A DNA stretch of 64,000 nt, taken from assembly GCA_000004985.1 (NCBI GenBank), contig GG738875.1; one strand, written 5' to 3'. The translations under genes and the position numbers were made by a program. The number at the start of each line of letters is the position of its first letter. Position 1 is the stretch's first letter. Source of the stretch: Naegleria gruberi. Taxonomy: Eukaryota. The notes under the pieces are model-generated. The model was not told the DNA's origin. It made no database searches and worked only from the letters and a program-made list of their open reading frames with translations. Positions 9,419-62,452 of this stretch are shown here, piece after piece.

Positions 9419-9491
9419 TGCTGACGGACGGGATCGAACCGGCGACCAATGGCTTATTAGACCAACGCTCTACCGACTGAGCTACGCCAGC
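9419..9491 (-). tRNA. tRNA-Ile, anticodon AAU.
   Basis: Reverse complement is GCTGGCG TA GCTC AGTCGGTA GAGC G TTGGT CTAATAA GCCAT TGGTC GCCGG TTCGATC CCGTC CGTCAGC A. The acceptor stem pairs 7/7 with one G-U. The T-loop is TTCGATC and the anticodon loop is CTAATAA. One mismatch each in the anticodon and T stems. Confidence 0.75.
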
Positions 9492-36893: not shown

Positions 36894-38519
36894 TTACCAC
36901 CTACTTGAGAAGGCAAATATTTCAATCTTGGTGAAATCAAAAGGACGACCACCTTGCAAAGTACAGGTTCCTTTCTTGGAAATTTCTGCAAATGATTTTA
37001 CATAAATAAAGTAGTTTGAATCAGTTTTTGGAGTTGCTTTTTGTTTTTCACATGTGAGAATCAAGTGATTGTTAATTATTTCAGCTCGCTCAGAGTCTTT
37101 TCCAATTGGGTTTTCAAAATAAACAGATTGTTTCTCAGATTCACTCCAAATAATGGCAAGAAAGCCATAACATGTTGATTGCTCATTCACTTCCTTCTTA
37201 AATTCCTCAATAGATGTTTTTGGGTTGATGGTAAGAATCAATTGATTTTGATATCTGAAACGTGTTTGCAATTCAAAATGATATAGTTGATTTGAGTCTA
37301 ATAAGGCACATTTCATATTGTTAATTGATATTTTGATTTCAAGAGGTTTTGTTTTTGAAAACTTGTTGCCTTGGAAATAGTTCAAATTTGGGAAAATGGC
37401 ACCTGACAAGTCACATTGGTTGAAACTGTTCTCCCAATCATCACTGAAACAATATCCAAACATATTACAGGATTCAAATTCACAATTTTCAAATTTAGCA
37501 CCTGATTGCTTCCAAAATTCACAGTCTTTGAATAAGGTATTTACAAATACTTTTCCTTTCAAAGATTCTTGATCGAATGATTTCTTTTCAAATTTTAAAA
37601 TTGGGGTACAGTTTCTAAATGTTGCATTTTCGGGATTGGAATTAGTGAAATCTATATTTTGAAAATCACAATTTTCGAAACATGCATATTTTAAATTGCA
37701 TGAGGTCAGATTTGCTGCAGAAAAGTTTCTACAAGATCTGAATTGTGCACTCTCAAGATTAGAATTACTCAAATTTGCAGAATTAAAATCACATTCTTTG
37801 AAAAGTACTTTTTTCAGACTACAAGAGCTCAAGTTTACCGAACTAAAATTACACGATTCAAATGTTGTGTCATCCATTCGATTTGAATTTAGTTTGGCTG
37901 ATGTGAAATTTGAATATTTGAAAAAAGAATTGTCCATTTTTGAAGAACTCAAATCACAATTCGAAAAATCAGCATTTGATAGTGTTGCTTTGCATAAAGA
38001 GGAATCACTCATTACACAATCTTTGAACGAAATTTTCTGTGCTTGTTCTAGTTTAACTCTATCCAAATTAATTCTCTTCAAATTTCGACCAGTAAAGTCC
38101 AAAATAGGTACATGCATTATCTCATGTTTAACAATCTCCAACACTGCACTGCTGACATCAAGTGTAGTGCTGTTACTTGTTTCAGATTCCAAGATTTTCA
38201 ACAAATTCACACAATTCAACTCTTTGCAAGCATTTATCAATTCTAATTTTTGATATTCTGATAAATCTCTATTTACCATTCCGTACTTTAACCAGTTAAA
38301 GATCATGTTAAATATTTTGTGTGGACAATTAACAAAATACACAGGATCAGTGAATAAATTGGATGGTGTTATTGTAGGTTGAATTTGTTGTTGTGTGAAA
38401 AGTTTAGAAAAGAAGGTGTCTGTTTCTCTTCCACTTTTAATTAATTCATCAGGAATGATGGTGCGGATCGTACCACCAACATTCAAATGAACGGGTTGTG
38501 AGGTAGTGATTGTGGACAT
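36894..38519 (-). CDS. KCTD9-like protein: T1-type BTB domain plus pentapeptide repeats.
   Basis: N-terminal VHLNVGGTIRTIIPDELIKSG (KCTD-type LNVGG). The central region has consecutive A(N/D)LxS pentapeptide repeats: ANLSN SNLES AQFRS CRNFS AANLT SCNLK YACFE NCDFQ NIDFT. Confidence 0.65.
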   Translation of the reverse strand: MSTITTSQPVHLNVGGTIRTIIPDELIKSGRETDTFFSKLFTQQQIQPTITPSNLFTDPVYFVNCPHKIFNMIFNWLKYGMVNRDLSEYQKLELINACKELNCVNLLKILESETSNSTTLDVSSAVLEIVKHEIMHVPILDFTGRNLKRINLDRVKLEQAQKISFKDCVMSDSSLCKATLSNADFSNCDLSSSKMDNSFFKYSNFTSAKLNSNRMDDTTFESCNFSSVNLSSCSLKKVLFKECDFNSANLSNSNLESAQFRSCRNFSAANLTSCNLKYACFENCDFQNIDFTNSNPENATFRNCTPILKFEKKSFDQESLKGKVFVNTLFKDCEFWKQSGAKFENCEFESCNMFGYCFSDDWENSFNQCDLSGAIFPNLNYFQGNKFSKTKPLEIKISINNMKCALLDSNQLYHFELQTRFRYQNQLILTINPKTSIEEFKKEVNEQSTCYGFLAIIWSESEKQSVYFENPIGKDSERAEIINNHLILTCEKQKATPKTDSNYFIYVKSFAEISKKGTCTLQGGRPFDFTKIEIFAFSSRW

Positions 38520-38581: not shown

Positions 38582-39688
38582 TTAAAAACATTTTCTTTGA
38601 ACTATTCCACTCCCAACCTCCTTATATTCATCTTTAGTAATCCACAAAGATTGAAAGCTTGATAATGATGCAAGAATGCTACCTCCAATCCAGACTGTTT
38701 CGCATCCCTTAGTTGGGCCATCCACACGAATTTTCATTGATGAAGGAGCTACCAGTGTTAATTCCTTGTGTATCCTCTCTGACATTCCCTTAAACATGGT
38801 TGTTCCACCTGAAAGAATAACATTCGAATATAAATCCTTTCTAATGTCAATATCACAATTTCGAATAGAATCAAATATTATTTCGTGTACTCCTTTATCT
38901 TCAATTCCAACTAAATTAGGTTGAAACAGTAATTCTGGACATCTGAATAGCTCATTTCCAATAGCGAGAAGTGTTCCATCTGGCCATTCATAATCAACAA
39001 TAGATGAATTGATCTTATATTGCTTCATTTCCTCCTCAAAATCCAAAGCTACATAACAATATCTTTCTTTCATATCTTTTACATATTCTCTTTCAAAACT
39101 GTATTGTAAATTGTATCCTCTTTCTTTCAAGAGGATCATCAAATGGTCAACCAAATCATCTCCTGCCCAATCTAATCTGCAAGTGGCATGCTGCAAAGCA
39201 TGACCTTCAAACACTGGAACCGATTGTGTAATATGATAACCAGAATCCAAAACTATTCCAGTCACGCCACCAGATGCATAGAGCGACAATACAGCTTGAT
39301 TGGCCAAATACATGGCTGGTACCTTATACCCTTCAAACATGATTTGAGTTGTTTTTTCTCTATTTTCCTTTGGATTTTGTTGTTCAGTTAGCATGACTTG
39401 ATGTTCCTCTGGCACAACTCTCAACTCATTGTAAAAGGCATGGTTCCAAACCAGCTCCATATCCTCCCAATTTGTGATCACTCTCTTGTCCACTGGATAA
39501 TGGAGACAAAGTGATTCTCCCCGATGAGAGGTTGCTCTATATCCTACATATGTAGGATTGCTTGAAAGTTTATTCCTTCGTTTGCCTACGATTGAAGGAA
39601 AGCTGTCTGTTGGAGAGTTTTCACCTGCAAAACCAACTTTACACATGCAAGATCCATTATCAATCACGATAGATTTGTTTAGAGACAT
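38582..39688 (-). CDS. Divergent actin / actin-like protein.
   Basis: Actin-wide matches: VIDNGSCMCKVGFAG, FYNELRVVPEEHQVMLTE, NREKTTQIMFE, QAVLSLYASGGVTGIVLDSG, CYVALDFEEEM, RCPELLFQP, CDIDIRKDLYSNVILSGGTTM, WIGGSILASLSSFQSLWITKDEYKEVGSGIVQRKCF. The real ATG is at 39686-39688 (MSLNKSIVIDNGS); the ORF-track start is further upstream. Confidence 0.8.
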   Translation of the reverse strand: MSLNKSIVIDNGSCMCKVGFAGENSPTDSFPSIVGKRRNKLSSNPTYVGYRATSHRGESLCLHYPVDKRVITNWEDMELVWNHAFYNELRVVPEEHQVMLTEQQNPKENREKTTQIMFEGYKVPAMYLANQAVLSLYASGGVTGIVLDSGYHITQSVPVFEGHALQHATCRLDWAGDDLVDHLMILLKERGYNLQYSFEREYVKDMKERYCYVALDFEEEMKQYKINSSIVDYEWPDGTLLAIGNELFRCPELLFQPNLVGIEDKGVHEIIFDSIRNCDIDIRKDLYSNVILSGGTTMFKGMSERIHKELTLVAPSSMKIRVDGPTKGCETVWIGGSILASLSSFQSLWITKDEYKEVGSGIVQRKCF

Positions 39689-39760
39689 TTTTTTGTTGGT
39701 TCTAGTGCAAATGATGATTGAACAATGTACTTGAAGAAATAATAGGGACACGAAACGAAG

Positions 39761-40702
39761 TTAATGGTTGACTGGGGTAACCTTAAGAAGTTTCTTCAAA
39801 TCTTGGTTTTCAGTGTTGACTAAATTTACAGCCCTGAATCCATTGAGAGTTAATTTGTGTTTGTCAGCTCCATGATCAAGTAAATATTTACAAAGAGAAT
39901 AGTTTTGTTTGCAGGCAGCCAAATGTAGACATGTGTATCCATCAAAATCTGTAGCATTGAGATCCATACCTCTCTTTTCAATGAGATATTCCACAATTTG
40001 TGTGCTACCTCTTGCACAGGCAATGTGAAGGCAATTTTGTCCATAGGTTCTATTTCCAATCATAAAGTGATCATTGTTACACATTGGTGGAAGTAGATTT
40101 TCACACATCCAAATAAATTTTGAATAAGCATTGGAATAGGCAAAGTTCATAAGAAGGGTAGAACGATTGTAATCTTTCACATTGAAAATATTCAGAATGT
40201 CCATCGTTTCACGGTTACGATACAACATTTCATAAAGCTTACACAATTCACAGAACAGAGCTGTGCATTCCTGTTCTGGATCAAAAATTGCTTGTAACAC
40301 AACAGATTTTTCTATATAATGTTTCAAATTATAAACTCGAATCAAAACAAGTGGTCTTTCCAATTCGTATGAAATTATATTCTTCCAAGCAAACGGATTC
40401 TTTATCGTTTTCAATTCTTTCATGATGAAAATATCCACAAATTTCTCTTTAGGATCCAACAATTCTACTCTCATCACACAACTGTTACTTTTTTCATCGA
40501 AAAAACAAGATTCTACTCTTTGGAAATTACGAGAGAAATTATTTAAATACAATAATAGTTGAAAGGAAGGATCTTGATGAATAATTTGATAAAATTCGTG
40601 GCAAACTAAATTAGCAGATCGGAAGAGATTTTCCAGAGGTAAATACTCGAGAATGGAGTGATAAATTTCCCTTGGTAGTAATTGATTTTCTAATGATATC
40701 AT
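39761..40702 (-). CDS. F-box-like N-terminus with C-terminal ankyrin repeats.
   Basis: LPREIYHSILEYLPLENLFRSANLVCHEFYQII at the N-terminus. Ankyrin repeats: GQNCLHIACARGSTQIVEYLIEKRGMDLNATDFDGYTCLHLAACKQNYSLCKYLLDHGAD. Confidence 0.6.
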   Translation of the reverse strand: MISLENQLLPREIYHSILEYLPLENLFRSANLVCHEFYQIIHQDPSFQLLLYLNNFSRNFQRVESCFFDEKSNSCVMRVELLDPKEKFVDIFIMKELKTIKNPFAWKNIISYELERPLVLIRVYNLKHYIEKSVVLQAIFDPEQECTALFCELCKLYEMLYRNRETMDILNIFNVKDYNRSTLLMNFAYSNAYSKFIWMCENLLPPMCNNDHFMIGNRTYGQNCLHIACARGSTQIVEYLIEKRGMDLNATDFDGYTCLHLAACKQNYSLCKYLLDHGADKHKLTLNGFRAVNLVNTENQDLKKLLKVTPVNH

Positions 40703-40993: not shown

Positions 40994-43900
40994 ATGCCGC
41001 CACTCCTTTCCTTCCATTCTTCTTCCATTATTATCATCCTCATTCTCTTCATCAACAGCATTTTCTTCATTCACTCCTCATTGGCTTCATCTAAAACAAC
41101 AATTATAAAAACAACAGCAAATAATTACAATATTAAAATAGTGGCAGGAAGTTATGGCAATACCATTGATTCCTATCATTTTCCGATCATATCCGAGAGT
41201 CCAATTTATGTGCAATCATCCTCATCATCATCATCTGTGGTGGTGATGGAGAAGGAGGAGGATGATGGTGATGAAATAATATATTTATCAGATACACAGT
41301 TTTGTGTGGTGAGGAAAATTCAGAAAAGTTTGAGTGTTGTGGTGGCAGGAAATGGAATTTGTGCAGTTCCTGGAGAGACAAGTGGATTGGCTGTTGAATT
41401 TTCATTGACATCACCAGGTGGTGTTTATTTGGATGAATCTACTAATATATTATATATTTTGGATAATGGATTGAGTAATTCAGGAGGTTTTGTTAGAACT
41501 GTTGATATGTCAAGTGGAATGTTAAATACTTTGCAATTGACCTATGAACCTGCAGTGCTTATGTTAAAAAGTCCAACAATGATAACAAAGAATGGTGGAA
41601 TATTTTACATTGCTGATACTGGCAATAATGTTATTAGAAGTTTGACATTTACTGGACAAAATACTGCTCATTGTAAAGTAATTATTGGTGCAGTCAACCC
41701 TGACGTATCAATGAGTTGTGTTAATGTTGACCCATTGAGTTGTCAACTTTCTTCTCCAACAAGTATTACATTTTCATCTGATGGAATGATCATTACTGAC
41801 CAGCAAAACAGTAGATTTCTCGCTTTACAAAATGGAATTGTGTATCCATATTCTTTGGTAATACCAACTCCATTGCAAATAATGAGTTTGGGAAATGCTG
41901 AATATATAGTTTCGAATGGAGAAATATTGTATTCCCTCACACAAACCACAAAAAATGGTGCAGATTCAACTATTCTCCTGAAGGATAAAAGTTGGCCAAT
42001 TGGATATTTTGGAATTGATTCAGCACAAACTAATCTTTATTTCATGAGTCAATTGCCAAATTTAGCAGTATCACAAATTGTTAAATTCAACATTCAATCT
42101 CTTGGTCAGCCAACAGTCATTGGTGGTGCATATCCTTATACTTTGAGTCCAAACGTGCCTGCTTCTAGTTACTATTTTAATGGATTAACTCAATTAGAAT
42201 ATGTCAGTGATAGTGAAATTTATTTCGCATCCTATAATACAGATATTATCAAATTTGATATGACAGCAGGATTGGCCACAAGAATTGCTGGTAATATGAA
42301 TCAACCATCAGCGTTATCAAAAATTTCTAAAGGCCTATTAGTTGCAGATACTGTTAATAGGTTAATTAAACTTATTGATGGTGGTGGATCTGTCTCTACT
42401 GTAGCAGGTACAAATTCAAATGGAATAGGTTGTCCTGAAGGAGTTCAGGCTACTAGTTGTGAATTGAATTTACCCAGTGGTGTGGTAGGTACACCCTCAA
42501 TACTATCAAATCAATACATGTTTGTAATTGCTGACAGTAATGCTAATACTCTAAGGATGGTAGCTAATGATTTCACTGTTACAACATTAGCCAACTCTGT
42601 ATCAAATGTGAGATATCCAACGGGTTTATATTACACTGCTAATGGAGATTTATATTTTGCTAATACTGGAACTTCTCAAATAATGAAATTAGCTCATGAT
42701 AATACCATCGCAGTAATTGCAGGAACAGGAGAAAAAGGAAACAAAGGCGATGGTGGATTAGCTGTGAATGCTGCATTGAATTACCCAACACAGGTTACTG
42801 TCACTTCAAATGGAATATTGTATATAGCCGACACTGGCAACAATGCTATCAGAAAAATTGATTCCAATGGTATTATATCTACTGTTACACATAATGCTAT
42901 TCAAGGAATTAATGGTGTTGCCACGACTTCTGAGGGTGAACTACTATACGCTGATAGTTATACTGTAAGAATGATTCAATCGGTAGCATGTATTAATCCA
43001 CAAGGCCAAGTTTGTTCAAATCATGGGAAATGTGTGGATGGGCAATGTCTATGTGAAAGTGGATGGAGAGGTGATTCAGTGTGTGGAACTTTTTCATGTG
43101 ATATTCCAAAACCACCAAATGCACATAATTGTATTGGACCTAACCAGTATTCATGTATGAATGGTTGGTTTGGAGATTTGTGTAATTTACCAATTTGTTT
43201 TGGAATTCAATATAATAATTCAGCTGTTTGTAGCTCACATGGAAAATGTGTATCTAACAACACATGCAATTGTGAAAGTGGATGGAATGGAAATACAAAA
43301 TGTGGGACCTTTTCGTGTGACATTCCAAAACCACCAAACGCCTTTGAATGTATTGGACCTAATCAATATTCATGCATGACTGGTTGGTTTGGAAATTCTT
43401 GTGAACTACCAATTTGTTTTGGAATTCAATTTAATAATTCAGCTGTCTGTAGCTCACATGGACAATGTGTATCTAACAACACATGTATTTGTGAAAGTGG
43501 ATGGAGAGGTGATTCAGTGTGTGGAACTTTTTCATGTGATATTCCAAAACCACCAAACGGTCAGCAGTGTATTGGACCTAACCAGTATTCATGTATGAAT
43601 GGATGGTTTGGAGATTTGTGTAATTTACCAATGTGCTTTGGGATTCAATATAACAGCTCTTCTGTTTGTAGCTCACATGGAAAATGCATATCCAACAATA
43701 CATGCAATTGTGAAAGTGGATGGAATGGAAATAAGCAATGTGGGGCCTTTTCGTGTGACATTCCAAAACCACCAAACGCCTTTGAATGTATTGGACCTAA
43801 TCAATATTCATGTATGGATGGATGGTTTGGAGATTTGTGTACTTTTCCAATTTGTTTTGGAATTCAATTTAATAATTCAGCTGTTTGTAGCTCACATGGA

Positions 43901-45865
43901 AAATGTATTTCCAGTAATACATGCAAGTGTGAAAGTGGATGGAATGGAAATAACCAATGTGGAGCTTTTTCATGTGACATTCCTTCTCAACATGGAATTT
44001 GTATTGGTCCAAACACTTTCAAATGTCAAGATGGATGGACAGGACTCGAATGTGAAATTCCAATTTGTTTTGGAAAATTAGGAAATGATCCTAGAGTGTG
44101 TAACTCACAGGGAAGATGTATTTCTAATAATACATGTCAATGCAATAGTGGATGGAAAGGAAATTCTGAATGTTCTCAATTCTCATGTGATGGAATGGCT
44201 GAATGTTCTCAAAATGGTAAATGTATTTCTAATAATACATGCCAATGCAGATCAGGATGGTCTGGACCAAAATGTGATATTGTTGCATGTGATGGAGTTC
44301 AAAACTGTCATGCTAATGGTTTGTGTATTTCAAACAATACTTGCAAATGTAATAGTGGATGGGAAGGTCAATCATGTTTGGAGTATAATTGCAATGGTAC
44401 CAACAATTGTCAACCGAACGGTCTATGCATTTCGAATAATACTTGTAAATGTAATGATGAATTTGGTGGAAATGATTGTTCAATACCTTACTGTTTTGGA
44501 AAATTGGGTAATAGTGGATGTGAAGATAATGGAATTTGCTCATTTTTCAACAAGTGCTCATGTTTTCCTCTTTACTTTGGAGATCAATGTTCATGGTTAG
44601 ATTGTGATCCAACTTCAAAAGATACATCCCAAAATTCAACTAAAAGATGCTCCTCAAATGGTTATTGTGTTATGACCAGAAATAATTTGAATCAAAATTC
44701 TACCATTTGTGAATGTAATAAGGGATATAATGGTCAATTTTGCCAAAATAGTGATTCTACGAATGGATCGGGAACAATAGCTGCTATAGTTGTTACAATA
44801 CTTGTTATAATTTTGGTATTTATATTAATGATAAGTGTTGGTACTTTTATCTATGTTAAAAAGTTCAGAAACAAATATCAAGATCCAGAGAAAATGAAAA
44901 TGTTAAACAATACTACACCATCAACTTATTCAGAATCAAGTTGGTCAAATTCTCTCTCCATTCAGAATGACACTAGTTTAATAAGTAATACTCACAGTAG
45001 TATTTCATCAAAGACACATTTCAAAATTAGGGATAAAGAATACATAATGGAAAGAAAATTAGGAAGTGGTGCTAATGGTTCTGTATTTGTATTTAAGGAA
45101 ATTAATACCAATCAGCATTTTGCCGTAAAGCAAATAGAAGTAACAAATCCATTTGGTACGGAATTTAAAGAAGTCGTGAATATGTTTGAATTGACTGAGG
45201 ATTCTAATGCTCATATTGTACCAATTATTGGCTGTACAATGGTCGAGAATGGAGGATTCATTTGTATTCTCATGCCACTCTACAAGTGTGATTTGAGAGA
45301 TTGGATATATACAAATCAAAAATCAATCACAATTGATCTAATTATTGAAATTGTAAAACAAATTGCTTTAGGATTACAATATCTCCATTCCAAGAATATG
45401 ATACACAGAGATTTGAAACAAACAAACATATTCATTGCCAAAGCCAATGAAAAAGATGTATCAAAATGTGATGACTTTTTATTGTGCATTGGAGATTGGG
45501 GATCTTCCAGATCTAATTCACGATCTGGTCTGACTGTCTATGAAGGAACAATTCAATTCAGTTCTCCAGAAGCAATCATTAAGGGAGAAGTTGAACAAGC
45601 AAGTGATATTTGGAGTTTGGGATGTGTTTTCTATCAATTATTATCTGGAGATTATGAATCAATTTTGTTTAGGATTAAACAAGGCAATGATCTGGCAGAT
45701 AATGAAGTACTCTTACCAAAAATTCTTAATTTTGGTAAAAAGATGAATTACAGAGATGGAAAGGTTCAATTTTGTTTTGAATTATTGTGTGAAATGATTA
45801 GATATGATGCCAAGATGAGATTAACTGCCCATCAAATTTTAGCCAAGATTGAAAACTTTAAATAA
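40994..45865 (+). CDS. Receptor-like protein kinase, 1623 aa: signal peptide, NHL-type repeats, about 12 tenascin-type EGF-like repeats, a single TM segment and a cytoplasmic protein kinase domain.
   Basis: Hydrophobic N-terminus SIIIILILFINSIFFIHSSLASS. NHL-like blades FYIADTGNNVIRSL and LYIADTGNNAIRKI. Repeated CGTFSCDIPKPPNA.ECIGPNQYSCMNGWFGDLCNLPICFG...CSSHGKC.SNNTC.CESGWNG units. TM segment IAAIVVTILVIILVFILMISVGTFIYV. Kinase motifs GSGANGSV, FAVK, HRDLKQTNIFI, a GDWGSS DFG variant and SPE. Confidence 0.75.
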   Translation: MPPLLSFHSSSIIIILILFINSIFFIHSSLASSKTTIIKTTANNYNIKIVAGSYGNTIDSYHFPIISESPIYVQSSSSSSSVVVMEKEEDDGDEIIYLSDTQFCVVRKIQKSLSVVVAGNGICAVPGETSGLAVEFSLTSPGGVYLDESTNILYILDNGLSNSGGFVRTVDMSSGMLNTLQLTYEPAVLMLKSPTMITKNGGIFYIADTGNNVIRSLTFTGQNTAHCKVIIGAVNPDVSMSCVNVDPLSCQLSSPTSITFSSDGMIITDQQNSRFLALQNGIVYPYSLVIPTPLQIMSLGNAEYIVSNGEILYSLTQTTKNGADSTILLKDKSWPIGYFGIDSAQTNLYFMSQLPNLAVSQIVKFNIQSLGQPTVIGGAYPYTLSPNVPASSYYFNGLTQLEYVSDSEIYFASYNTDIIKFDMTAGLATRIAGNMNQPSALSKISKGLLVADTVNRLIKLIDGGGSVSTVAGTNSNGIGCPEGVQATSCELNLPSGVVGTPSILSNQYMFVIADSNANTLRMVANDFTVTTLANSVSNVRYPTGLYYTANGDLYFANTGTSQIMKLAHDNTIAVIAGTGEKGNKGDGGLAVNAALNYPTQVTVTSNGILYIADTGNNAIRKIDSNGIISTVTHNAIQGINGVATTSEGELLYADSYTVRMIQSVACINPQGQVCSNHGKCVDGQCLCESGWRGDSVCGTFSCDIPKPPNAHNCIGPNQYSCMNGWFGDLCNLPICFGIQYNNSAVCSSHGKCVSNNTCNCESGWNGNTKCGTFSCDIPKPPNAFECIGPNQYSCMTGWFGNSCELPICFGIQFNNSAVCSSHGQCVSNNTCICESGWRGDSVCGTFSCDIPKPPNGQQCIGPNQYSCMNGWFGDLCNLPMCFGIQYNSSSVCSSHGKCISNNTCNCESGWNGNKQCGAFSCDIPKPPNAFECIGPNQYSCMDGWFGDLCTFPICFGIQFNNSAVCSSHGKCISSNTCKCESGWNGNNQCGAFSCDIPSQHGICIGPNTFKCQDGWTGLECEIPICFGKLGNDPRVCNSQGRCISNNTCQCNSGWKGNSECSQFSCDGMAECSQNGKCISNNTCQCRSGWSGPKCDIVACDGVQNCHANGLCISNNTCKCNSGWEGQSCLEYNCNGTNNCQPNGLCISNNTCKCNDEFGGNDCSIPYCFGKLGNSGCEDNGICSFFNKCSCFPLYFGDQCSWLDCDPTSKDTSQNSTKRCSSNGYCVMTRNNLNQNSTICECNKGYNGQFCQNSDSTNGSGTIAAIVVTILVIILVFILMISVGTFIYVKKFRNKYQDPEKMKMLNNTTPSTYSESSWSNSLSIQNDTSLISNTHSSISSKTHFKIRDKEYIMERKLGSGANGSVFVFKEINTNQHFAVKQIEVTNPFGTEFKEVVNMFELTEDSNAHIVPIIGCTMVENGGFICILMPLYKCDLRDWIYTNQKSITIDLIIEIVKQIALGLQYLHSKNMIHRDLKQTNIFIAKANEKDVSKCDDFLLCIGDWGSSRSNSRSGLTVYEGTIQFSSPEAIIKGEVEQASDIWSLGCVFYQLLSGDYESILFRIKQGNDLADNEVLLPKILNFGKKMNYRDGKVQFCFELLCEMIRYDAKMRLTAHQILAKIENFK
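43010..44170 (+). repeat. In-frame tandem DNA repeat of about 219 bp (roughly 5 units), encoding the EGF-pair modules of the receptor kinase.
   Basis: Unit boundaries at about 43081, 43303, 43522, 43741 and 43960. The first four units are more than 90% identical; the last has diverged. These repeats produce the spurious alternate-frame ORFs at 43161..44081. Confidence 0.6.
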
Positions 45866-46090: not shown

Positions 46091-47125
46091 TTAATATTGT
46101 TTCTGGAGTCCATATTTGAAATCTTTAGTCTCAGTGGTGGTTCGGTATCGAATAATCATTTCAACGAGTAGTTCAGCAATACCCACACCATCCCTTGCAC
46201 TAGTGTGTACAATTGAGCAATTTAGGATCATGTTCTTTCTGAGAACTCGTTTCACATATAATTCCCTAGTTTTTTCATCGTGTTCTCCATATGTAATATC
46301 ACACTTTGTGAAAACAATGATTATTGGACTATTATTGACCTCTCTAATACGAACAATTCTCTGTAGCAATTTATCCAAAAAATTGTAACTGTGCTCTATT
46401 GATTTTTGATTATCCTTCGAATAATTACTCCAATAAGGTTGTGGTGGTATTGTTAGTAAAATTATATCACTAATCTGTATCATCCGATCCTGTAAGGACA
46501 CATACTCATCCATTGCATATGTATCCACAATTTCCAATTGATATTTAGCATCCGAATATCGAAACTCTTTCAAATAAGTATCCTCAATTTGCATCTCATA
46601 TGGAGAATTGAAAAATTCACCAGACAGTACTCGACATAGACTTGATTTTCCAGAACCATACTCTCCAATACAAAATATCTTACATTTCAAATCCTCAACA
46701 TTCATTTGAGAATTTTGATTAATATTACCAACACTATTCGATTCATTTTTCTTCATTATTGGAATCAATTGTTCCTCATACTGAATCTGCAACATTCTCA
46801 CTAACATGCAATAGTATCGTTTGGCTTTTTTCTTGATTTTTTCTCTAAGTTTCTTCTCTTCCTGCAGTAGAGAATGGCCAAGAAATTCCCTCTCCATCAA
46901 ACTCAACCAAAATTCATTGAAATAATTAGAAATTTCCAAAGATTCGGATAAAAAGAAGGAACAAGTGGATTGGAGTGAAAGGATGCTCTTTTTTACTTCA
47001 TCAATTTGTAGATTAATGAAATTATTTGATGAAGTGTTGGCAGTTTGATGATGAACAGGTAACAGAAAGGAAAATATTTCACGGAAAATGTCATGTGGTA
47101 AAGATAATAGTGTGAATTTTGACAT
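46091..47125 (-). CDS. F-box-like N-terminus plus a divergent Ras-superfamily small GTPase domain.
   Basis: G1 is CIGEYGSGKSS, G3 is EIVDTYAMDEY, G4 is IVFTKCDI (NKxD becomes TKCD) and G5 is HTSARDGVG. The N-terminus is LPHDIFREIFSFLL. The first ATG is at 47123-47125; the ORF-track start is a TTG. Confidence 0.55.
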   Translation of the reverse strand: MSKFTLLSLPHDIFREIFSFLLPVHHQTANTSSNNFINLQIDEVKKSILSLQSTCSFFLSESLEISNYFNEFWLSLMEREFLGHSLLQEEKKLREKIKKKAKRYYCMLVRMLQIQYEEQLIPIMKKNESNSVGNINQNSQMNVEDLKCKIFCIGEYGSGKSSLCRVLSGEFFNSPYEMQIEDTYLKEFRYSDAKYQLEIVDTYAMDEYVSLQDRMIQISDIILLTIPPQPYWSNYSKDNQKSIEHSYNFLDKLLQRIVRIREVNNSPIIIVFTKCDITYGEHDEKTRELYVKRVLRKNMILNCSIVHTSARDGVGIAELLVEMIIRYRTTTETKDFKYGLQKQY

Positions 47126-47528
47126 TTTTTTTAAGTTGTTAATTACAAGTTGGAACTTGGTTTGGAACAATGTTCATAAAAACAAACTTATGAAAATTCA
47201 TATTCTATGAATATTTACAGAGATGCCATGCCTCCTATATGTTGTTCTTGTTATTTTGCATTGTAATTCATTTATATTTGATGAAATCGAATAAAATCTT
47301 TAAACTTAAATAACATTCACCAAATAATCCGATGAAGAATTACCTGAAAAATTAGCACTGGCCTCTAAACCTGTTGTGTATAGTGTTGATTTTTTTCTGT
47401 ATTTTCAAAACCGCCAAATAGCAAACCTTAGTATTTTCCTTTTTGAGAGATTCAAGTTCTGATTGAACTTTTCTCAAAAATAATTATTCCTCAATAAAAG
47501 TCTTCCATTTTGCAAAAAAAAAAATCGA

Positions 47529-50010: not shown

Positions 50011-53000
50011 TTATTGGGCTTTTCTTGGTTCAATAACGAGAGACTTCTTGTGAAGTTCATCATCATTGGTGATAATTCCTTCAAAGATTTGTTCTTTAAG
50101 AACATATTGAAGGTAAGGAATAGGTTCTAAACGATACAAGTTGGAACAACTTTGTAAATCCTTTACAGTTTGAATAGTATTATAGTAAATTCTTCTCTTT
50201 TGATAATTAATGAGTTTCTTGTTTGGATTCTTAGGGTGATTAAATTCATCAGGATTACCATCAGAAGTGAAGGTCAAATCAGTTTGGAAGATACCAATAA
50301 ATGGAACGATTGGAGTATTATTGTTAACAATGGTATTCTTCAAATTTTCTCTCAATTTGATACGATTGTTAGCATGTAAGTCATCAAAGATCTTAAAGAT
50401 GTTGGCATCGTCTTGTGAGAGAACTTTTCTTGTTTCTTTCAATCTATAAACAGGAACAGATTGCAAACCTGAAATAATGGCAAAGAAGGCACTATAGTTA
50501 TTCAATTCATAAGTTTCCTTAGCAATTTCAACAAACTTCTTAAACAATGCCTTTCTAATTTCGGTATTTGACTCTGTCAAGATTGTAGTTTGAACCCAGT
50601 AACTGATATTGTTTACACGGTCAGTCAATGAAGAAATGTGAGGAGCCAATTCATACTTGTACTTGATATCACTCCATGCAGAGTTATAGAATTCGTTTGC
50701 TTCAATCTTCTTAAAGATCTTCAAATCAATAATAGTTTCTTGTCTAGCAATTTCAGTAGCTGGCCAACTCAACAAGTTGAATTGAATATTGTAAGGATTA
50801 GGCATGCCTTCATTAATGTATTTGGACTTTTGAATCTTCCATTGGTTAAGAGAGATTTCTGGTTCTTTCAACTTTTCAATTGGAACACCTTTAGGAATCA
50901 TGACAGTGTTAGATTGGCCATGATGACTGGTTGAACCGGATTCATCCTTCTTGAAACTAAGCAAGTTTTGAACAAGAGTCTTTCTAATCTTCTTCAAAGT
51001 TGGGTGAACCCTCTTTGCACCATCCTCTTGTTGTTTCTTTCTGATTGGTTGGGCAATTTCTTCAAAATAGTGCGCATAAAGAGCAACAGCTTCATTGTCA
51101 AGAGCATGGAAAGCTTCCTTGAGGAGTTCATTCATTGCTTGTTCAATGTAGAGACGAACAGTGTTATTCTTGATAACAGATCTGTAGACTCCCATAAGAC
51201 GATTCATCAGAGAACGTGCTGTGGTGAATGATGAGAAGGTATTGAGGAAGGTAGAATGGAAAACACCTCTCAATTCAGTTTCACCTTCCAATGTTAGCAT
51301 TCCTACGAATTTTTCCACCAACTTCTTCAATGTACCAGATGAAATTGTACTACGCTTAATATCAACATTGACATCTTCTGGTTCATCTTCCAAATCAACT
51401 TCACTCTCAAAGTTAAGAACATAAGAAAATGGTTCCAAGAGCAAAGCCATACATTCCTTTGAGATTTGAATAGACTCACCAATAGCCTTATCACCCATCA
51501 GTTCTTCAGTGTACAAACTACAAGCTCCCAAAAGCCATCTCCACTTTTGTTCAACCTTACGTTTTTGGGCGTAAGGAACTCTGTCCTTCTTTGGAATTGT
51601 TAGGTCATATAAATCTGGACAGACAAGACTGTGGTTAAAGCTAGTAAGGAATGGATGCAAACAATCTTGGAATATGAGAGACACAACCTTGAATTCATCC
51701 TTCATAGTCAATTGGAAAATCATGTTAAATATCAATCTTGAAATTGAACGCAAAAGCAAGGATTTGACTGGAGTCATTGTCTTGGTATTTCTGGTGATTT
51801 CTAGTTTTGAAATGACTTGGACATATTCTTCCTTGTTAGCCAAGAGCTTATCTATTGGATATTTAACATTGATATTTTCAAAGATTTGATTGAGAACATT
51901 CTTCTCAGTGATCTTGCTGAGGATATAATTAACAGACAAAACTGTTTCGATACGAATATTTCTTTGTCCTCCCTTCTTCCTTTCTTTTGGAATGGATGAA
52001 GAATAATCGAGGTGATGTACAGACATGACTACATAGTCTAAGAATGAAATACAATTGATCATCACGTGTAGAGGAGCTTGAGTCCACCATTGGATGAGTC
52101 TTTGTTCTGAGAGGTTTCTCAAAACCCAAAGAAGACAGAAAGAGGTCAAGATGTAAAGTTCATCATTGTGGAACATTGTAAGGTATTCTTCCTTATCCAT
52201 ATATCTGTCAACAAAATACAAGAAAATTTCTGCAATAGCGGCTCTCTTGGATGTATCTTGATATCTTGAATCAAAGTCAATCTTGCAGAATAAATCTAAC
52301 AAGTATTTGCCAACTTTGAGCATGAGCTTTTCATTATTAGTTTCAATGGTGGCAAAGAAAACATCAAATAAGTGTCTAACCATAAAGTTTCCTTCTTGCA
52401 ATTGCAAACTGTTGAGTGGAATGAAATAGTCATAGTCGCACAAAATGGCAACAAACTCTGACTTTAATCTCAAAAGTGCTTCAGTACTAGCATCTCCTGA
52501 AAGACAATCCATATAGTGCTTGACAATATCAATATAGTATTCTCTATCAATGAATGGAATTAAATCTCTAATAAACAATGCCAAGTTTCTGTTACTATTC
52601 AAACCAATATTTTGTCTACCTGAACCACTAGAAGACAATAATTTCTTTGTACGAGAACAGAAGTGATGCATTAATTGTTTGACCTTTCTCACAAAGTATT
52701 CTTGAGAAAGTGGATGTTCATCATTCCACCCATATCCATCGTTAGACTTATTCAAATACCAACTGTCCTTGATGGTGAGACAATCCAAAGAATCAGTCTT
52801 GATACACAATGTCAAACTCTTAATAATAACATCAAAGATAAACCAAGAGAAACGGAACGGATCGTGTTCAGTCAAATTGTTAGTAACAAAGTAGTGTTTG
52901 GTTGGTTCTTGCAAAATCTTTGTCAATTCTTCCAAATAGTCAGTAAAGACACGAGTTAAAACTGAATAAATTGGATAACCTCTATTCATTTCGTCAAAGA

Positions 53001-56000
53001 TATACTTGGTATATGAAGCCATAAACTTGTTACCTCTGGTATGATTCTTAGTAAGATGGTAAACACCTCTCAAACAGACCAATACTTGTTCGAAGATTAA
53101 TCTTTCAGCACCCTTTCTCAAATCAGTAGAGTGAATAGATAAATCAGAAATGTTACTCATGAGTTCAAACAAAATATTCATAACAATTGGTAAGTGAGGC
53201 ATAAATAAGGAAAAGTCAATATCACAGAACTTCATCAAAATGGATCTGCAAATGTATTCCAAAATCTTTTCCTTATTCTCAGTCTCAGGGCTATACAAAT
53301 CGTGAATACTGGCAAAGAAGAGTTTCAAAATATCATCACGTGGATTGATTGTTGAAACAAGTTGTGCCATAAGCTTGAATCTGGCATCACTTATTTTTTC
53401 AAGAGTGCCCTTAGTTTGACTCTTAGTAAGGTAATCTGGTTGGAGTTCCTTGTATACTCTGAGTTCTCCAGTAAAGAATTGCTTTTGGAAATCAGTATGT
53501 TTGAGTTGATAGATTGCTTGTGCCTTGTCAGCTTCATAAATCTTGTTCTTTTCAGTCAAATCCAAGAATGAATAACCTAGGATTGCTCTATCACTGTTAC
53601 CAAAATCATCCTTTCTATCCAAGAATTCATACTTTAGCTTATTAGACTTTTTATCAATATCAATATGATAGAAAGTGAAAAGCAAGTGATTACCCTTGTT
53701 TGAAACAGCTGGAATATCAAGCTTAATTTCATCAAGGAATTGTGGAGTCTTATTATCATACTCAAGAGCAGAGAATTCACTATGCTTCTTTTCAGAAGTA
53801 AATCTGTTAATAATGACTGGATTAGATTTTTGAAGCTCTTCCAATGTTGGAATAGTGCTATCTGATTCTCTGAAAATTACCTCAATGAGAATGTTCTTAC
53901 CATTAGCCTTTTCCAATTTGACACCTTGTGGATAGACATACAAAGTATTTTGTAAGTTCATGTATGGATATCTGATTTTGTACCATGGAATTTCATTAAC
54001 TGAAATAGACTCTAAAATCTTCATTTGCTCTTCAAAGAGGGCTTTTCCGAAATCACCAGAATTTAGGATGACTGAATTACGACGTTCGGCCTCACTTTCT
54101 TCATCTTCTTCTTCCATAACATTGGCAACATCAGTACTATCATCTCCCAAATAATTGTTTGGTGTTTGGTAAGATGAGTGGTCTTCATTGATACTTCCAC
54201 TGTCTTCAGAATCTTGCTTGTATATGAGTTGACTATCACCAATACCAGCTCCAGTATCTTCTGATGGTTTTGATAACTTGTACTTTTGAAGATCACTGAT
54301 CAACTCAACGTAAACCTTCATTGTAGCGTTAACAGAATGGTGTTTAGTCTTTTGCTTAAGTGCAGAGTAAACATTGAGTGGATTTTTGTAATCACCTTCA
54401 ACAAAGAACATTTGTTCAAAGTTCAAAATACTAGATGTCAACTCTATCTTCTTCTCATTGATTTTAAATAAAGGTACAAATCCAAAGAATGCTGGATACC
54501 TAAAGAAAGCCAACTTGTCCTTCTTTTCTAAAAATTCGGAACTAAATTCCTTCTTCTTGTGTGCCTTGATTGTATCCTTGGTTGGGCCATTGGATACACG
54601 GTTAACAAACAATACCAAAAACATTTCTTCATTTGGTGAAGAAACTGAGAATAATCTCTTCTCAGTTCTAGCAACACCTCTCTTTTGAAGAGAATTATGG
54701 AGGGATTCTGGAAGTTTCATCAATTGTTCATCAGTGAACATGTGGAAGTGATAATCTTCGCTGACCTTCTTTAAATATTTGGCATCATAGATGGCAACAG
54801 AGAATGTGAATAGATCATTTTGGAGTTCAGTACTATCCATAAAAATAAAATCGCTGCATGATAATTGGAATCTGAACTTTTTCTTGACAGGATATTCAAT
54901 TTCAGGGAATCTTTGACACATAGTAGTATGGAGTGGTTTGTATTCATATCTTGGTTGTAAAACTCCCATCAATCTCTTAGTATCCTTTTGAACATTTTTA
55001 CGATTCAATTCGGCAATATCGTTCAATTTCTTTTGAGGATCAACACTCAAACTGTCAGTCTTTTGCAGTTCTGCAGTGAGTTCATTCAAAAGTTCAAGAG
55101 GACGCTTAGCACACAATTCCTTAGCCTTTTCAACCAAACTCTTTTTCAAAGATTTGGAAATATCGATTTCATCAAAAGCATCAACAGCCTTCTTTTCACC
55201 AGTCTTCTTTTGAAGATTGGCAATTTCCTTCTCTGAAAGGTTTTGTTGATTAGTTACAAGAGAGGTGAAGCTCATTTGTCTTGGGAAGTTTGGATCGTTT
55301 GGATCGATGGTTGGAACCTCCTTCTTAGTTTCAGATCCTTCCTTTCCTTCCTTATCGTCCTTCTTAGTACTAGATTCGGTATTTTGTGCAGTAGTCTTGA
55401 AGATATTATTCCAAATTGATTTTCTCTTGTCTCTGTTTGTTGCTGCAGGGGAACCGGCTGAACTTGATTTACCACTACCAGAAGCAGCAATAGAATCACG
55501 ATTACTACTTCTAGACAAGGCATTCTTTAACTTTTTGGACAAGCCACTTTCTGTAAAGTCACCCATTTGTTCAGTAGCACGGAAAAGCTCCTCTGGATCT
55601 TTAGAAGTTTGTACTTCAGTAGCCTTTTCAGCTTGGGCTTTTTCAATGTCTAAAATCTTGGACATGGAAGGTAAGATATCGTCATCATTTGTATCTTGAT
55701 TCTCCTCTTCCTCTGATTTCTTTTGTTCCTTCTTATTCTTCTTAGCTGATTTATCCTCATGTTCAGTTGATTGTGTTGCTGTTGTTACCGTAGTACTGTT
55801 AGTAGGAGCCTCAGAATTAAGAATTGCATATTGTGGTTTGAAAGGAGACATTCTGTATGGATTTGCTTCATAATGCAAAATCTTGAATGGTTTATAGAAA
55901 ACTTGCAAACAGTGTCTCACATGAGGGAATTTGAAATAAACAACTTCCTCCAAATTAGTATCTGCATCACTTGATTTCTTTGTAACTTTTTGTAAATATC

Positions 56001-62381: not shown

Positions 62382-62452
62382 TGCATTAGCCGGGAGTCGA
62401 ACCCGGGTCACCAGCTTGGAAGGCTGGTATGATACCGTTACACTACTAATGC
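62382..62452 (-). tRNA. tRNA-Gly, anticodon UCC.
   Basis: Reverse complement GCATTAG TA GTGT AACGGTA TCAT A CCAGC CTTCCAA GCTGG TGAC CCGGG TTCGACT CCCGG CTAATGC A forms a canonical cloverleaf with a 7-bp acceptor stem. Confidence 0.85.

What the first reader, a model, noticed from the sequence alone, without database searches (positions are those of the whole stretch)
40994..45865. Single-pass receptor kinase with NHL blades and a recently amplified EGF-module array
Signal peptide, NHL-type repeats (ADTGNN.IR), about 12 EGF/tenascin-like modules, a TM helix, and a kinase with non-canonical DWG (for DFG) and SPE (for APE). Five central EGF-pair modules are encoded by 219-bp units that are near-identical at the DNA level (43010..44170). 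This implies very recent in-frame amplification, or ongoing concerted evolution of the ectodomain, as seen in adhesion or recognition receptors.
Basis: partly seen in the sequence, partly recalled or inferred. Interest (0 to 1): 0.6.

Follow-up and report, generated by a model that had tools for sequence, protein, structure and literature searches.

The report
Naegleria NHL–EGF receptor-like protein kinase
This is an already catalogued but unstudied gene of the amoeba Naegleria gruberi for a cell-surface receptor-like kinase; its repeated stalk was lengthened by old tandem duplications, not recent ones, so it is a modest curiosity.

Summary
The ORF 40994..45865 (+, 1623 aa) is real. It is 100% identical to XP_002675885.1, "serine/threonine kinase [Naegleria gruberi]".
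- a signal-peptide-like N-terminus;
- two predicted six-bladed NHL beta-propellers;
- a Cys-rich stalk of 11 six-Cys EGFs plus 5 four-Cys truncated EGF-like modules;
- one TM helix;
- a complete Ser/Thr-type kinase domain with DWG and SPE.

All catalytic residues are present and conserved in two full-length N. gruberi paralogs, and DWG is the native motif of active CK2-alpha. An active kinase is therefore the best reading.

The "near-identical, very recent" claim fails. The four full 219-bp units are 78–90% identical, with dS 0.28–1.0 and dN/dS 0.14–0.30. Site patterns (18:4:0) show that a 438-bp two-unit block was duplicated, and the copies then diverged under purifying selection. The expansion is still specific to this paralog: 16 EGF modules against 8 in each full-length paralog, and paralog dS is about 1.5–1.9.

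A near-identical second copy of another paralog carries one extra, almost identical unit. So copy-number change in the family may be ongoing.

The kinase clade is an orphan, seen only in N. gruberi-like sequences. It is a new variant of a known kind, of moderate-to-low interest.

The parts
40994..45865 (+). Complete intronless CDS (1623 aa plus stop). It equals XP_002675885.1 / UniProt D2VJ61, 'serine/threonine kinase [Naegleria gruberi]'.
40994..41086 (+). Signal-peptide-like N-terminus (aa 1-31). It has a hydrophobic core SIIIILILFINSIFFI and small residues at -3/-1 (S-L-A|SS).
   Evidence: Hydropathy. The cleavage site is inferred from the -3/-1 rule and was not predicted by a dedicated tool.
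41087..41275 (+). Low-confidence, probably disordered linker (aa 32-94) with a poly-Ser and acidic stretch.
   Evidence: pLDDT is below 35 for model residues 1-60.
41276..42124 (+). Predicted beta-propeller 1 (aa ~95-377). It has about 24 strands, that is six four-stranded blades, and contains ADTGNNVIR (aa 207-215).
   Evidence: AlphaFold2 model, pLDDT mostly 70-90. Foldseek matches tandem-propeller and NHL proteins.
42185..42976 (+). Predicted NHL beta-propeller 2 (aa ~398-661), six blades, containing ADTGNNAIR (aa 612-620).
   Evidence: Pfam NHL and TEN_NHL. pLDDT about 85-93. PDB sequence hits to the NHL domains of bacterial teneurin-like proteins, SOQ1, teneurins, NHLRC2, TRIM2/3 and PknD.
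42989..44746 (+). Cys-rich EGF stalk (aa 666-1251). It has 11 six-Cys tenascin/teneurin-type EGFs plus 5 four-Cys truncated EGF-like modules, 86 Cys, and all 14 N-x-S/T sequons of the ectodomain.
   Evidence: Pfam EGF_TEN, EGF_Teneurin and EGF_2; Cys-pattern parsing.
43045..44164 (+). Tandem array of 219-bp units, each unit being the C-terminal half of a six-Cys EGF, a four-Cys module and the N-terminal half of the next EGF. There are four full units, starting at 43046, 43265, 43484 and 43703, which are 78-90% identical. A fifth, diverged unit has a 6-nt deletion. The internal structure is a duplicated 438-bp two-unit block.
   Evidence: TRF; the repeat finder; identity scans; dN/dS; site patterns 18:4:0.
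44186..44491 (+). Three tandem single EGF modules of 102 nt (aa 1065-1166), 53-60% identical at the DNA level. The paralogs have one. This is an older second expansion.
44774..44857 (+). Single transmembrane helix (aa ~1261-1288), followed by the positively charged KKFRNK.
   Evidence: Hydropathy maximum 3.54.
44858..45043 (+). Ser/Thr/Asn-rich juxtamembrane linker (aa 1289-1350), poorly conserved between paralogs.
   Evidence: alignment A2
45044..45847 (+). Protein kinase domain (aa 1351-1618). Motifs: GSGANG 45062-45079; AVK Lys1378 within 45122-45133; HRDLKQTN 45404-45427; DWG 45494-45502; GTIQFSSPE with SPE at 45563-45571; DIWSLG 45605-45622.
   Evidence: Pfam Pkinase 144.8 bits against PK_Tyr_Ser-Thr 95.6 bits. 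Motif coordinates. Conservation in paralogs. AlphaFold model pTM 0.86. Foldseek matches Ser/Thr kinases of many groups.

Best explanation
The gene encodes a type-I single-pass, receptor-like Ser/Thr protein kinase of Naegleria gruberi. It is one of a small lineage-restricted family with at least three full-length paralogs.

The ectodomain is a ligand-binding head of two six-bladed NHL-type beta-propellers. A disulfide-rich, glycosylatable stalk of 16 EGF-type modules holds the head away from the membrane. The cytoplasmic part is a catalytically competent RD-type kinase whose DWG motif replaces DFG.

Most likely mechanism (inferred, not shown): an extracellular ligand or surface binds the propellers and clusters receptors. 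The kinase domains then trans-phosphorylate the Ser/Thr-rich activation segment (DWGSSRSNSRSGLTVYEGT) and pass the signal to cytoplasmic substrates.

The stalk of this paralog was doubled from 8 to 16 modules by tandem in-frame duplications. First a 219-bp EGF-pair unit was duplicated, then the resulting 438-bp two-unit block. There was also an older triplication of a 102-nt single EGF. These events postdate the split from the paralogs but are old. The copies have since diverged under purifying selection, so all modules are probably functional and the extra length itself is probably what was selected.
For: Shown:
- The ORF is intact and identical to the public gene model.
- There are only two hydrophobic segments, placed as a signal peptide and a TM helix. 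Positive charges follow the TM. All 86 stalk Cys and all 14 sequons lie on the predicted outside.
- Two propellers are predicted (mean pLDDT 75, second propeller about 90). They match NHL/YWTD tandem-propeller ectodomains and NHL domains by sequence.
- The kinase profile is matched almost end to end and the model has pTM 0.86.
- The Gly-loop, AVK Lys, alphaC Glu, HRDLKxxN, DWG Asp, GT..(S/A)PE, DxWSxG and subdomain-XI Arg are all present and invariant in three paralogs that are only 51-63% identical over the aligned C-terminal region (last EGFs, TM and kinase).
- HRDLKQTN and the higher Pkinase score indicate the Ser/Thr type.
- DWG is the native motif of constitutively active CK2-alpha (PMC9608649).
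- Repeat history: 82% and 89% matches at periods 219 and 438. dS is 0.28-0.35 for U1/U3 and U2/U4 against 0.45-1.0 for other pairs, with dN/dS 0.14-0.30. Informative sites split 18 (13|24): 4 (12|34): 0 (14|23). The full-length paralogs have 8 modules against 16 here. Paralog dS is 1.45-1.9.
Against: - There is no experimental or expression evidence of any kind.
- The ligand is unknown.
- Signal-peptide cleavage was not predicted by a dedicated tool, and the n-region lacks a basic residue.
- Only one NHL repeat passes Pfam on its own, so propeller 1 rests mainly on the AlphaFold model (pLDDT 70-90).
- The kinase cannot be placed in any established group, so substrate type and regulation are inferred from motifs only.
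- dS estimates rest on about 50 synonymous sites per unit and have wide errors.
Confidence: 0.72

Rival explanations
1. It is a very recently amplified array, or one undergoing concerted evolution. On this view the 219-bp units are kept near-identical by ongoing unequal crossing-over or gene conversion, giving a copy-number-polymorphic recognition receptor.
For: - The array is detectable at the DNA level and is specific to this paralog.
- P0347 is 98-100% identical to paralog P0341 through the NHL region up to the insertion point (91.5% over the EGF block after it), and it carries one extra EGF-pair unit that is 71/73 identical to its neighbour. So such events do happen in the family.
- Four 12|34 sites cluster at the 3' end of the unit, which could be a short conversion tract.
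Against: - In the window gene the units differ by 10-21% at the DNA level.
- dS is at least 0.28 for every pair, and the longest shared exact run is 68 nt.
- Each unit carries 3-11 private substitutions.
- This is the pattern of old duplicates diverging independently, not of homogenisation.
Confidence: 0.1
2. It is an adhesion or scaffold receptor with a catalytically inactive pseudokinase. The DWG and SPE deviations would mark loss of activity, and the cytoplasmic domain would serve only as a docking module.
For: - It has non-canonical DFG and APE motifs.
- It is an orphan clade with no close characterised relative.
- The long EGF stalk and NHL head resemble adhesion proteins. An N. lovaniensis NHL-EGF-TM protein has no kinase at all (P0018).
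Against: - Every residue needed for catalysis is present and invariant across three diverged paralogs: the Gly-loop, K1378, the alphaC Glu, HRD Asp, Asn1478, the DWG Asp, and the APE-type Glu.
- The Asp of DWG, the metal ligand, is retained.
- CK2-alpha is active with DWG.
- Paralog P0002 has a canonical APE.
Confidence: 0.12
3. The repeat array is an assembly artefact, with the copy number expanded or collapsed.
For: Tandem repeats are a classic source of assembly error. No independent assembly of this locus was found: the protein occurs on a single contig in the collection.
Against: - The units are 10-21% diverged, with a maximum exact overlap of 68 nt. Reads of a few hundred bases place uniquely.
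- The array stays in frame, keeps every Cys, and shows dN/dS well below 1.
- The public gene model is the same.
Confidence: 0.03

Closest known systems
N. gruberi paralogs XP_002670873.1 (P0002, 1395 aa) and XP_002671107.1 (P0341, 1349 aa), plus the related pieces P0347, P0290, the metagenome contig L001 and the Logan fragment P0209
   Same: They share the architecture: NHL region, EGF stalk ending in the same CFGK..CSCFP..WLDC module, TM, and a kinase with HRDLKQ(T/S)N and DWG. The kinase is 67% identical to P0002.
   Different: Each full-length paralog has only 8 EGF-type modules, with one PKPP-type pair and one SQHG/SEHG-type pair. The window gene has 16. None has been characterised.
Mycobacterium tuberculosis PknD, a receptor Ser/Thr kinase with a six-bladed NHL beta-propeller sensor (PDB 1RWI/1RWL)
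   Same: It combines an extracellular NHL propeller, one TM helix and a Hanks-type Ser/Thr kinase. Its NHL domain is detectably similar by sequence (E 5.6e-6).
   Different: PknD has the opposite topology, with the kinase N-terminal and the sensor C-terminal (my own knowledge). It has one propeller and no EGF stalk. Its kinase is not among the closer relatives. This is an analogous design, not shared descent.
Teneurins and bacterial teneurin-like proteins (TLPs)
   Same: The best Pfam models for the stalk and head are EGF_TEN (151.9 bits) and TEN_NHL (45.8 bits). The best PDB sequence hits of propeller 2 are bacterial TLPs (8e-48, summed over 6 stretches) and teneurin-2/3/4 (about 1e-15).
   Different: The teneurin superfold is defined by an FN-plug, an NHL domain and a YD shell, on a type-II membrane protein (PMC13018210). 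No YD/RHS, FN-plug, TTR or Tox-GHH hit occurs here. The topology is type I and the tail is a kinase. Only the generic EGF and NHL modules are shared.
LRP4/5/6 and the LDL-receptor family (YWTD propeller plus EGF ectodomains)
   Same: The top Foldseek matches of the N-terminal model are tandem six-bladed propellers in single-pass receptors (E about 1e-15).
   Different: TM-scores are only about 0.35 and identity 12-15%. There is no Ldl_recept_b or LDL-A hit. In LRPs an EGF follows each propeller rather than forming a stalk, and there is no kinase.
Plant wall-associated kinases (WAK/WAKL) and other EGF-bearing receptor kinases
   Same: They have an extracellular EGF-like region, one TM helix and a Ser/Thr-type kinase (my own knowledge).
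   Different: WAK kinases belong to the RLK/Pelle (TKL-related) group. Here TKL members such as RAF score no better than CAMK, CMGC, PLK, ULK or NEK kinases. WAKs have no NHL head.
CK2-alpha
   Same: It has a DWG motif instead of DFG in an active kinase (PMC9608649).
   Different: CK2 is not among the 60 best PDB sequence hits or the 50 best fold hits. DWG appears to have arisen independently.

Membership tests
Eukaryotic protein kinase superfamily (Pfam PF00069 Pkinase) | A full-length match above the gathering score, with a bilobal fold. | tested here: met
   144.8 bits against a cut-off of 31.7, profile positions 2-259 of 263. AlphaFold pTM 0.86, with top fold hits all protein kinases.
Eukaryotic protein kinase superfamily, catalytically competent members | GxGxxG, VAIK Lys, alphaC Glu, HRD Asp, catalytic-loop Asn, DFG Asp and APE Glu are all present. 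| tested here: met
   GSGANG, AVK (K1378), FKEVVNM, HRDLKQTN, D1501-W-G and S-P-E1526 are all invariant in three paralogs. Enzymatic activity itself cannot be tested here.
Ser/Thr-specific versus Tyr-specific kinases (metazoan-type RTK) | Catalytic loop HRDLKxxN with a GT..xPE P+1 loop marks Ser/Thr kinases. HRDLAARN or HRDLRAAN marks Tyr kinases. | tested here: not met
   The RTK signature is not met. The loop is HRDLKQTN and the P+1 loop is GTIQFSSPE. Pkinase scores 144.8 bits against 95.6 for PK_Tyr_Ser-Thr. The protein is filed as Ser/Thr type, not as an RTK.
NHL-repeat beta-propeller (PF01436 / PF25021) | NHL repeat matches above the gathering score, and a six-bladed propeller fold. | tested here: met
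   NHL 48.7 bits (cut-off 20) and TEN_NHL 45.8 bits (cut-off 27.1). The model has two runs of about 24 strands. PDB NHL domains are hit by sequence.
Teneurin / teneurin-like proteins | A superfold of FN-plug, NHL and YD-repeat shell; in metazoans also type-II topology (PMC13018210). | tested here: not met
   No RHS/YD, FN-plug, TTR or Tox-GHH family at E <= 0.1. An N-terminal signal sequence and C-terminal kinase give type-I topology. It is not a teneurin.
LDL-receptor/LRP YWTD-EGF receptors | Ldl_recept_b (YWTD) repeats and LDL-A modules. | tested here: not met
   No PF00058 or LDL-A hit in this protein. There is only a fold-level resemblance, with TM about 0.35.
PknD-like bacterial receptor kinases | N-terminal cytoplasmic Hanks kinase, TM helix, and C-terminal extracellular NHL propeller. 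| tested here: not met
   The order is reversed here, with the head N-terminal and the kinase C-terminal. The PknD sensor is only a weak NHL match (5.6e-6). The design is analogous; membership is not claimed.
Plant RLK/Pelle (WAK-type) receptor kinases | The kinase domain groups with RLK/Pelle/IRAK. | tested here: inconclusive
   No RLK/IRAK chain is among the top 60 sequence hits or the top 50 fold hits. Hits are spread over CMGC, CAMK, TKL (RAF), PLK, ULK and NEK. No kinome-wide phylogeny was run.
Type-I single-pass membrane receptor | A cleavable signal peptide, one TM helix and a cytoplasmic C-terminus. | tested here: inconclusive
   Hydropathy shows exactly two hydrophobic segments in the right places, with positive-inside charges. 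No dedicated signal-peptide or TM predictor and no experiment were available.

The most novel reading that the evidence does not exclude
The NHL-EGF kinases are a Naegleria-specific receptor family in which ectodomain length is actively tuned by unequal crossing-over of the 73-aa EGF-pair unit: 8 modules in two paralogs, 16 here, and a ±1-unit difference between two near-identical copies of a third gene. The propeller heads would serve in recognition of prey, bacterial surfaces or kin. That would make this a protist counterpart of copy-number-variable recognition receptors, coupled directly to an orphan DWG kinase.
Probability: 0.12. Interest if true: 0.55.

Novelty: new variant of a known kind. 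Interest (0 to 1): 0.33.

Why it matters
Single-pass receptor kinases outside animals and plants are poorly charted. Heterolobosean amoebae such as Naegleria branch far from both.

A small family that joins a tandem NHL-propeller head and an EGF stalk to an orphan Ser/Thr kinase shows that receptor-kinase architectures were assembled independently from the same extracellular building blocks. Those blocks include the EGF and NHL module types also found in teneurins.

The family also offers a clean natural experiment: paralogs differ mainly in stalk length. This could be used to ask how ectodomain reach affects sensing.

The gene itself is already in public databases with automatic annotation, and nothing here overturns current understanding.

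Tried and rejected
1. Orthologs in other Naegleria species. Three word-indexed homolog searches and one exhaustive representative search found no N. fowleri or N. lovaniensis kinase of this clade. They found only N. gruberi proteins, one ENA metagenome contig (L001) and one Logan fragment (P0209). The indexed searches are lossy: one search did not return the query's own protein, and one search missed P0121. The representative library collapses relatives above 50% identity. Absence is therefore not proven.

2. Strain or allele comparison of this gene. Two metagenome scans found no relative of the gene, only a distant kinase (L002). The protein is on record on a single contig.

3. DNA of paralogs P0002 and P0347. 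It is not on record. Paralog dS was therefore estimated from L001, which belongs to the P0341 cluster at >=90% identity.

4. Kinase group assignment by PDB sequence search and by fold search. No group was preferred.

5. Literature. No paper in the library cites the accessions or describes a Naegleria NHL-EGF kinase.

6. A teneurin relationship was considered because of the Pfam model names and the PDB TLP hits. It was rejected because the defining FN-plug and YD shell are absent.

7. Bacterial origin of the NHL head was considered because the best non-Naegleria hits are bacterial. It was left open, because repeat proteins inflate such scores and identities are only 25-35%.
Full report
**1. What is in the sequence**

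The window is AT-rich (about 30-38% GC) and packed with long intronless ORFs on both strands. The ORF at 40994..45865 (+) is uninterrupted and encodes 1623 aa. It is 100% identical over its full length to EFC43141.1 / XP_002675885.1 / UniProt D2VJ61, "serine/threonine kinase [Naegleria gruberi strain NEG-M]", on a 396-kb contig. The window is therefore Naegleria gruberi nuclear DNA, and the gene is already in the public record with automatic annotation.

The neighbouring genes are unrelated eukaryotic genes. They include an actin-family protein, an F-box/ankyrin protein, a Ras-family GTPase and a DOCK-C2/RasGEF giant. There is no operon-like context to interpret.

**2. Anatomy**

- **Hydrophobic segments.** Kyte-Doolittle scanning finds only two strongly hydrophobic segments. 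One is aa 1-32 (MPPLLSFHSSSIIIILILFINSIFFIHSSLAS). The other is aa ~1261-1288 (IAAIVVTILVIILVFILMISVGTFIYV), followed by KKFRNK.
- **Pfam.** The hits are EGF_TEN (2.9e-44), Pkinase (4.3e-42, profile 2-259 of 263), EGF_Teneurin (10 stretches), EGF_2, NHL (5.5e-13) and TEN_NHL (5.5e-12). There is no YD/RHS, FN-plug, LDL-A or YWTD family.
- **Head.** An AlphaFold2 model of aa 33-666 was built on an alignment with the paralog, an N. lovaniensis NHL-EGF protein and bacterial NHL proteins. It has mean pLDDT 75, and the second half is about 90. After a disordered Ser/acid-rich linker (pLDDT below 35) it shows two runs of about 24 beta-strands. I read these as two six-bladed propellers, at aa ~95-377 and ~398-661.
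- **Head, comparisons.** Foldseek matches tandem-propeller ectodomains (LRP4/6, megalin) and NHL proteins (NHLRC2, SOQ1, a bacterial teneurin-like protein). TM-scores are low, about 0.35, as expected when only the individual propellers and not their mutual orientation are shared. By sequence, propeller 2 hits the NHL domains of bacterial teneurin-like proteins, SOQ1, teneurin-2/3/4, NHLRC2, TRIM2/3 and, weakly, PknD.
- **Stalk.** It spans aa 666-1251 and contains 86 Cys. These are arranged as 11 six-Cys EGFs, the last with a long insert, and 5 four-Cys truncated EGF-like modules (C-x11-C-x7-C-x2-GW-x-G-x2-C). All 14 N-x-S/T sequons of the ectodomain lie here.

**3. The kinase**

All canonical catalytic elements are present: GSGANG, AVK (K1378), the alphaC Glu (FKEVVNM), HRDLKQTN, DWG (1501-1503), GTIQFSSPE and DIWSLG. 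They are invariant in three N. gruberi paralogs that are otherwise only 51-63% identical over the aligned C-terminal region, which covers the last EGFs, the TM helix and the kinase.

HRDLKxxN, the GT..PE P+1 loop, and the higher Pkinase than PK_Tyr_Ser-Thr score (144.8 vs 95.6 bits) mark it as Ser/Thr type. It is an RD kinase with a Ser/Thr-rich activation segment. The AlphaFold model is a confident bilobal kinase (pTM 0.86).

DWG is not a defect. It is the native motif of active CK2-alpha, where it disfavours the DFG-out state (PMC9608649). CK2 is not a close relative here, so DWG arose independently. Paralog P0002 has a canonical APE.

No kinase group is preferred. PDB sequence hits at 1e-17 to 1e-15 span CDPK, ERK5, ULK, PLK1, RAF and NEK. 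Fold hits span CDK2, Pho85, CDPK, DCLK1, TTK, DAPK3, ULK1 and AAK1 at 18-26% identity.

In an exhaustive search of 1.84 billion representatives, the only proteins above about 36% identity are P0002 (67%), P0121 (67%, partial), P0209 (49%, a Logan fragment) and P0290 (55%, an N. gruberi fragment). This is an orphan clade known only from N. gruberi-like sequences.

**4. The repeat array**

TRF finds a period of 219 nt (43052..43983, 4.3 copies, 82% matches, no indels). It also finds a better period of 438 nt (43045..43943, 89% matches). The repeat finder gives the same register plus a fifth copy, about 72% identical, after a 6-nt deletion.

- **Identity.** The four full units (starts 43046, 43265, 43484, 43703) are 78.5-90.4% identical pairwise. 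The longest exact run between copies is 68 nt.
- **Substitution rates.** Nei-Gojobori estimates give dS 0.35 (U1/U3) and 0.28 (U2/U4). The other pairs give 0.45-1.0. dN/dS is 0.14-0.30 throughout.
- **Order of events.** Of the two-state informative sites, 18 group U1 with U3 and U2 with U4. Four group U1 with U2 and U3 with U4, and three of these four (205, 210, 216) cluster at the unit's 3' end. None supports the third partition. Each unit has 3-11 private changes.
- **Reading.** An EGF-pair unit was duplicated, then the two-unit block was duplicated. The copies have since diverged independently under purifying selection. "Near-identical", "very recent" and "concerted evolution" are not supported for this gene.
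- **Breakpoints.** The DNA register starts inside the first EGF, at its C4 (aa 685). The breakpoints therefore lay within EGF modules, as expected for unequal crossing-over between similar modules.
- **Second array.** Downstream, 44186..44491 holds three 102-nt single EGFs that are 53-60% identical. This is an older, second expansion.

**5. Comparison with paralogs**

XP_002670873.1 (P0002, 1395 aa) and XP_002671107.1 (P0341, 1349 aa) have the same architecture. Each has only 5 (+1) six-Cys EGFs and 2 four-Cys modules, that is, one PKPP-type pair and one SQHG/SEHG-type pair. The window gene has three extra pairs and two extra single EGFs, which doubles the stalk from 8 to 16 modules.

Synonymous divergence between the window gene and a P0341-like sequence (metagenome contig L001) is 1.45-1.9, which is saturated. 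The amplification is therefore clearly younger than the paralog split, yet not recent.

Because the units are 10-21% diverged, in frame, and keep every Cys, an assembly artefact is unlikely.

**6. An unexpected lead**

P0347 is an N. gruberi "predicted protein" on an 11-kb contig. It is 98-100% identical to P0341 through the NHL region up to the insertion point, and 91.5% identical over the 236-aa EGF block after it. It contains one additional 73-aa EGF-pair unit, 71/73 identical to its neighbour.

This is either an allelic haplotig, a very recent duplicate or a mis-assembly. I could not get its DNA. If real, it shows that the same unit still changes copy number in this family.

**7. Mechanism**

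- **Shown:** the domain order, the intact catalytic residues, the Cys and sequon distribution, and the repeat history.
- **Inferred:** a type-I surface receptor whose propeller head binds an unknown ligand. Clustering would drive trans-phosphorylation of the activation segment of an RD kinase. Stalk length would set the reach of the head.
- **Rivals:** a pseudokinase or adhesion role, ongoing concerted evolution, and an assembly artefact. These are weighed in the structured fields.

**8. Relation to known systems**

It works like other single-pass receptor Ser/Thr kinases.

- **Closest design analogue.** This is M. tuberculosis PknD, which has an NHL propeller sensor, a TM helix and a Hanks kinase. 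PknD has the opposite topology, one propeller, no EGFs, and no specific kinase relationship.
- **WAKs.** They share the EGF-plus-Ser/Thr-kinase layout but belong to RLK/Pelle.
- **Teneurins.** The teneurin-named Pfam hits reflect generic EGF and NHL modules only. The defining FN-plug/NHL/YD-shell superfold (PMC13018210) is absent.

No paper in the searchable library mentions the accessions or a Naegleria NHL-EGF kinase.

**9. Verdict**

The amplification claim was overstated.

The gene is already catalogued but uncharacterised, with an undescribed domain combination and an orphan DWG kinase clade. I rate it a new variant of a known kind, with moderate-to-low interest (0.33). The P0347/P0341 unit-number difference is the most promising thread.

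Noticed in passing
not in the window: proteins P0347 vs P0341 (N. gruberi; 11,233-bp contig vs 259-kb contig): P0347 is 98-100% identical to paralog P0341 through the NHL region up to the insertion point, and 91.5% identical over the EGF block after it. It carries one extra 73-aa EGF-pair unit that is 71/73 identical to the adjacent one, plus an internal NHL deletion and a divergent C-terminus. It could be allelic copy-number variation, a very recent duplicate or a mis-assembly.
   Followed up: partly
L001 1..2430 (ENA metagenome ERZ929261, contig k127_197211): An environmental contig carries a gene in the same 90%-identity cluster as paralog P0341. It has an NHL end, an EGF stalk with one pair of each type, a TM helix and the kinase N-lobe. 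The reading frame is broken between about 578 and 693 and after 2363, which suggests introns or errors. It shows that N. gruberi-like amoebae with this family occur in that sample.
   Followed up: partly
window 50011..57522 (-): A 2503-aa ORF combines a DOCK-type C2 domain (3.8e-28) with RasGEF_N and RasGEF domains (4e-49). This is an unusual pairing of a Rho-GEF-family module with a Ras-GEF catalytic domain.
   Followed up: no
window 46091..47170 (-): A 359-aa ORF has a C-terminal Ras-family GTPase domain (6.9e-14). Its N-terminal extension (LLSLPHDIFREIFSFL) looks F-box-like by eye, but Pfam reported no F-box hit at E <= 0.001.
   Followed up: no
window 38582..39751 (-) and 39761..40702 (-): Directly upstream on the other strand lie an actin-family protein (Pfam Actin 2.9e-116, 389 aa) and an F-box-like plus ankyrin-repeat protein.
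   Followed up: no
window 36894..38519 (-): A 541-aa ORF has pentapeptide-repeat regions (Pentapeptide_4, 1.6e-23). This is a repeat type better known from bacteria.
   Followed up: no
window 9419..9491 (-) and 62382..62452 (-): Two tRNA genes: tRNA-Ile (AAT) and tRNA-Gly (TCC).
   Followed up: no
window 45494..45502 (DWG): DWG replaces DFG in all members of this Naegleria kinase clade. The CK2 literature calls DWG unique to CK2-alpha among ePKs (PMC9608649). Here it seems to have arisen independently in an unrelated kinase.
   Followed up: partly
not in the window: P0018 (N. lovaniensis C9374_010972, 1278 aa): This protein has an NHL propeller, a long EGF array, a TM helix and a short tail, with no kinase. 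It is 31% identical to the query over 49% of the query's length. NHL-EGF ectodomains therefore also exist in Naegleria without a kinase.
   Followed up: no
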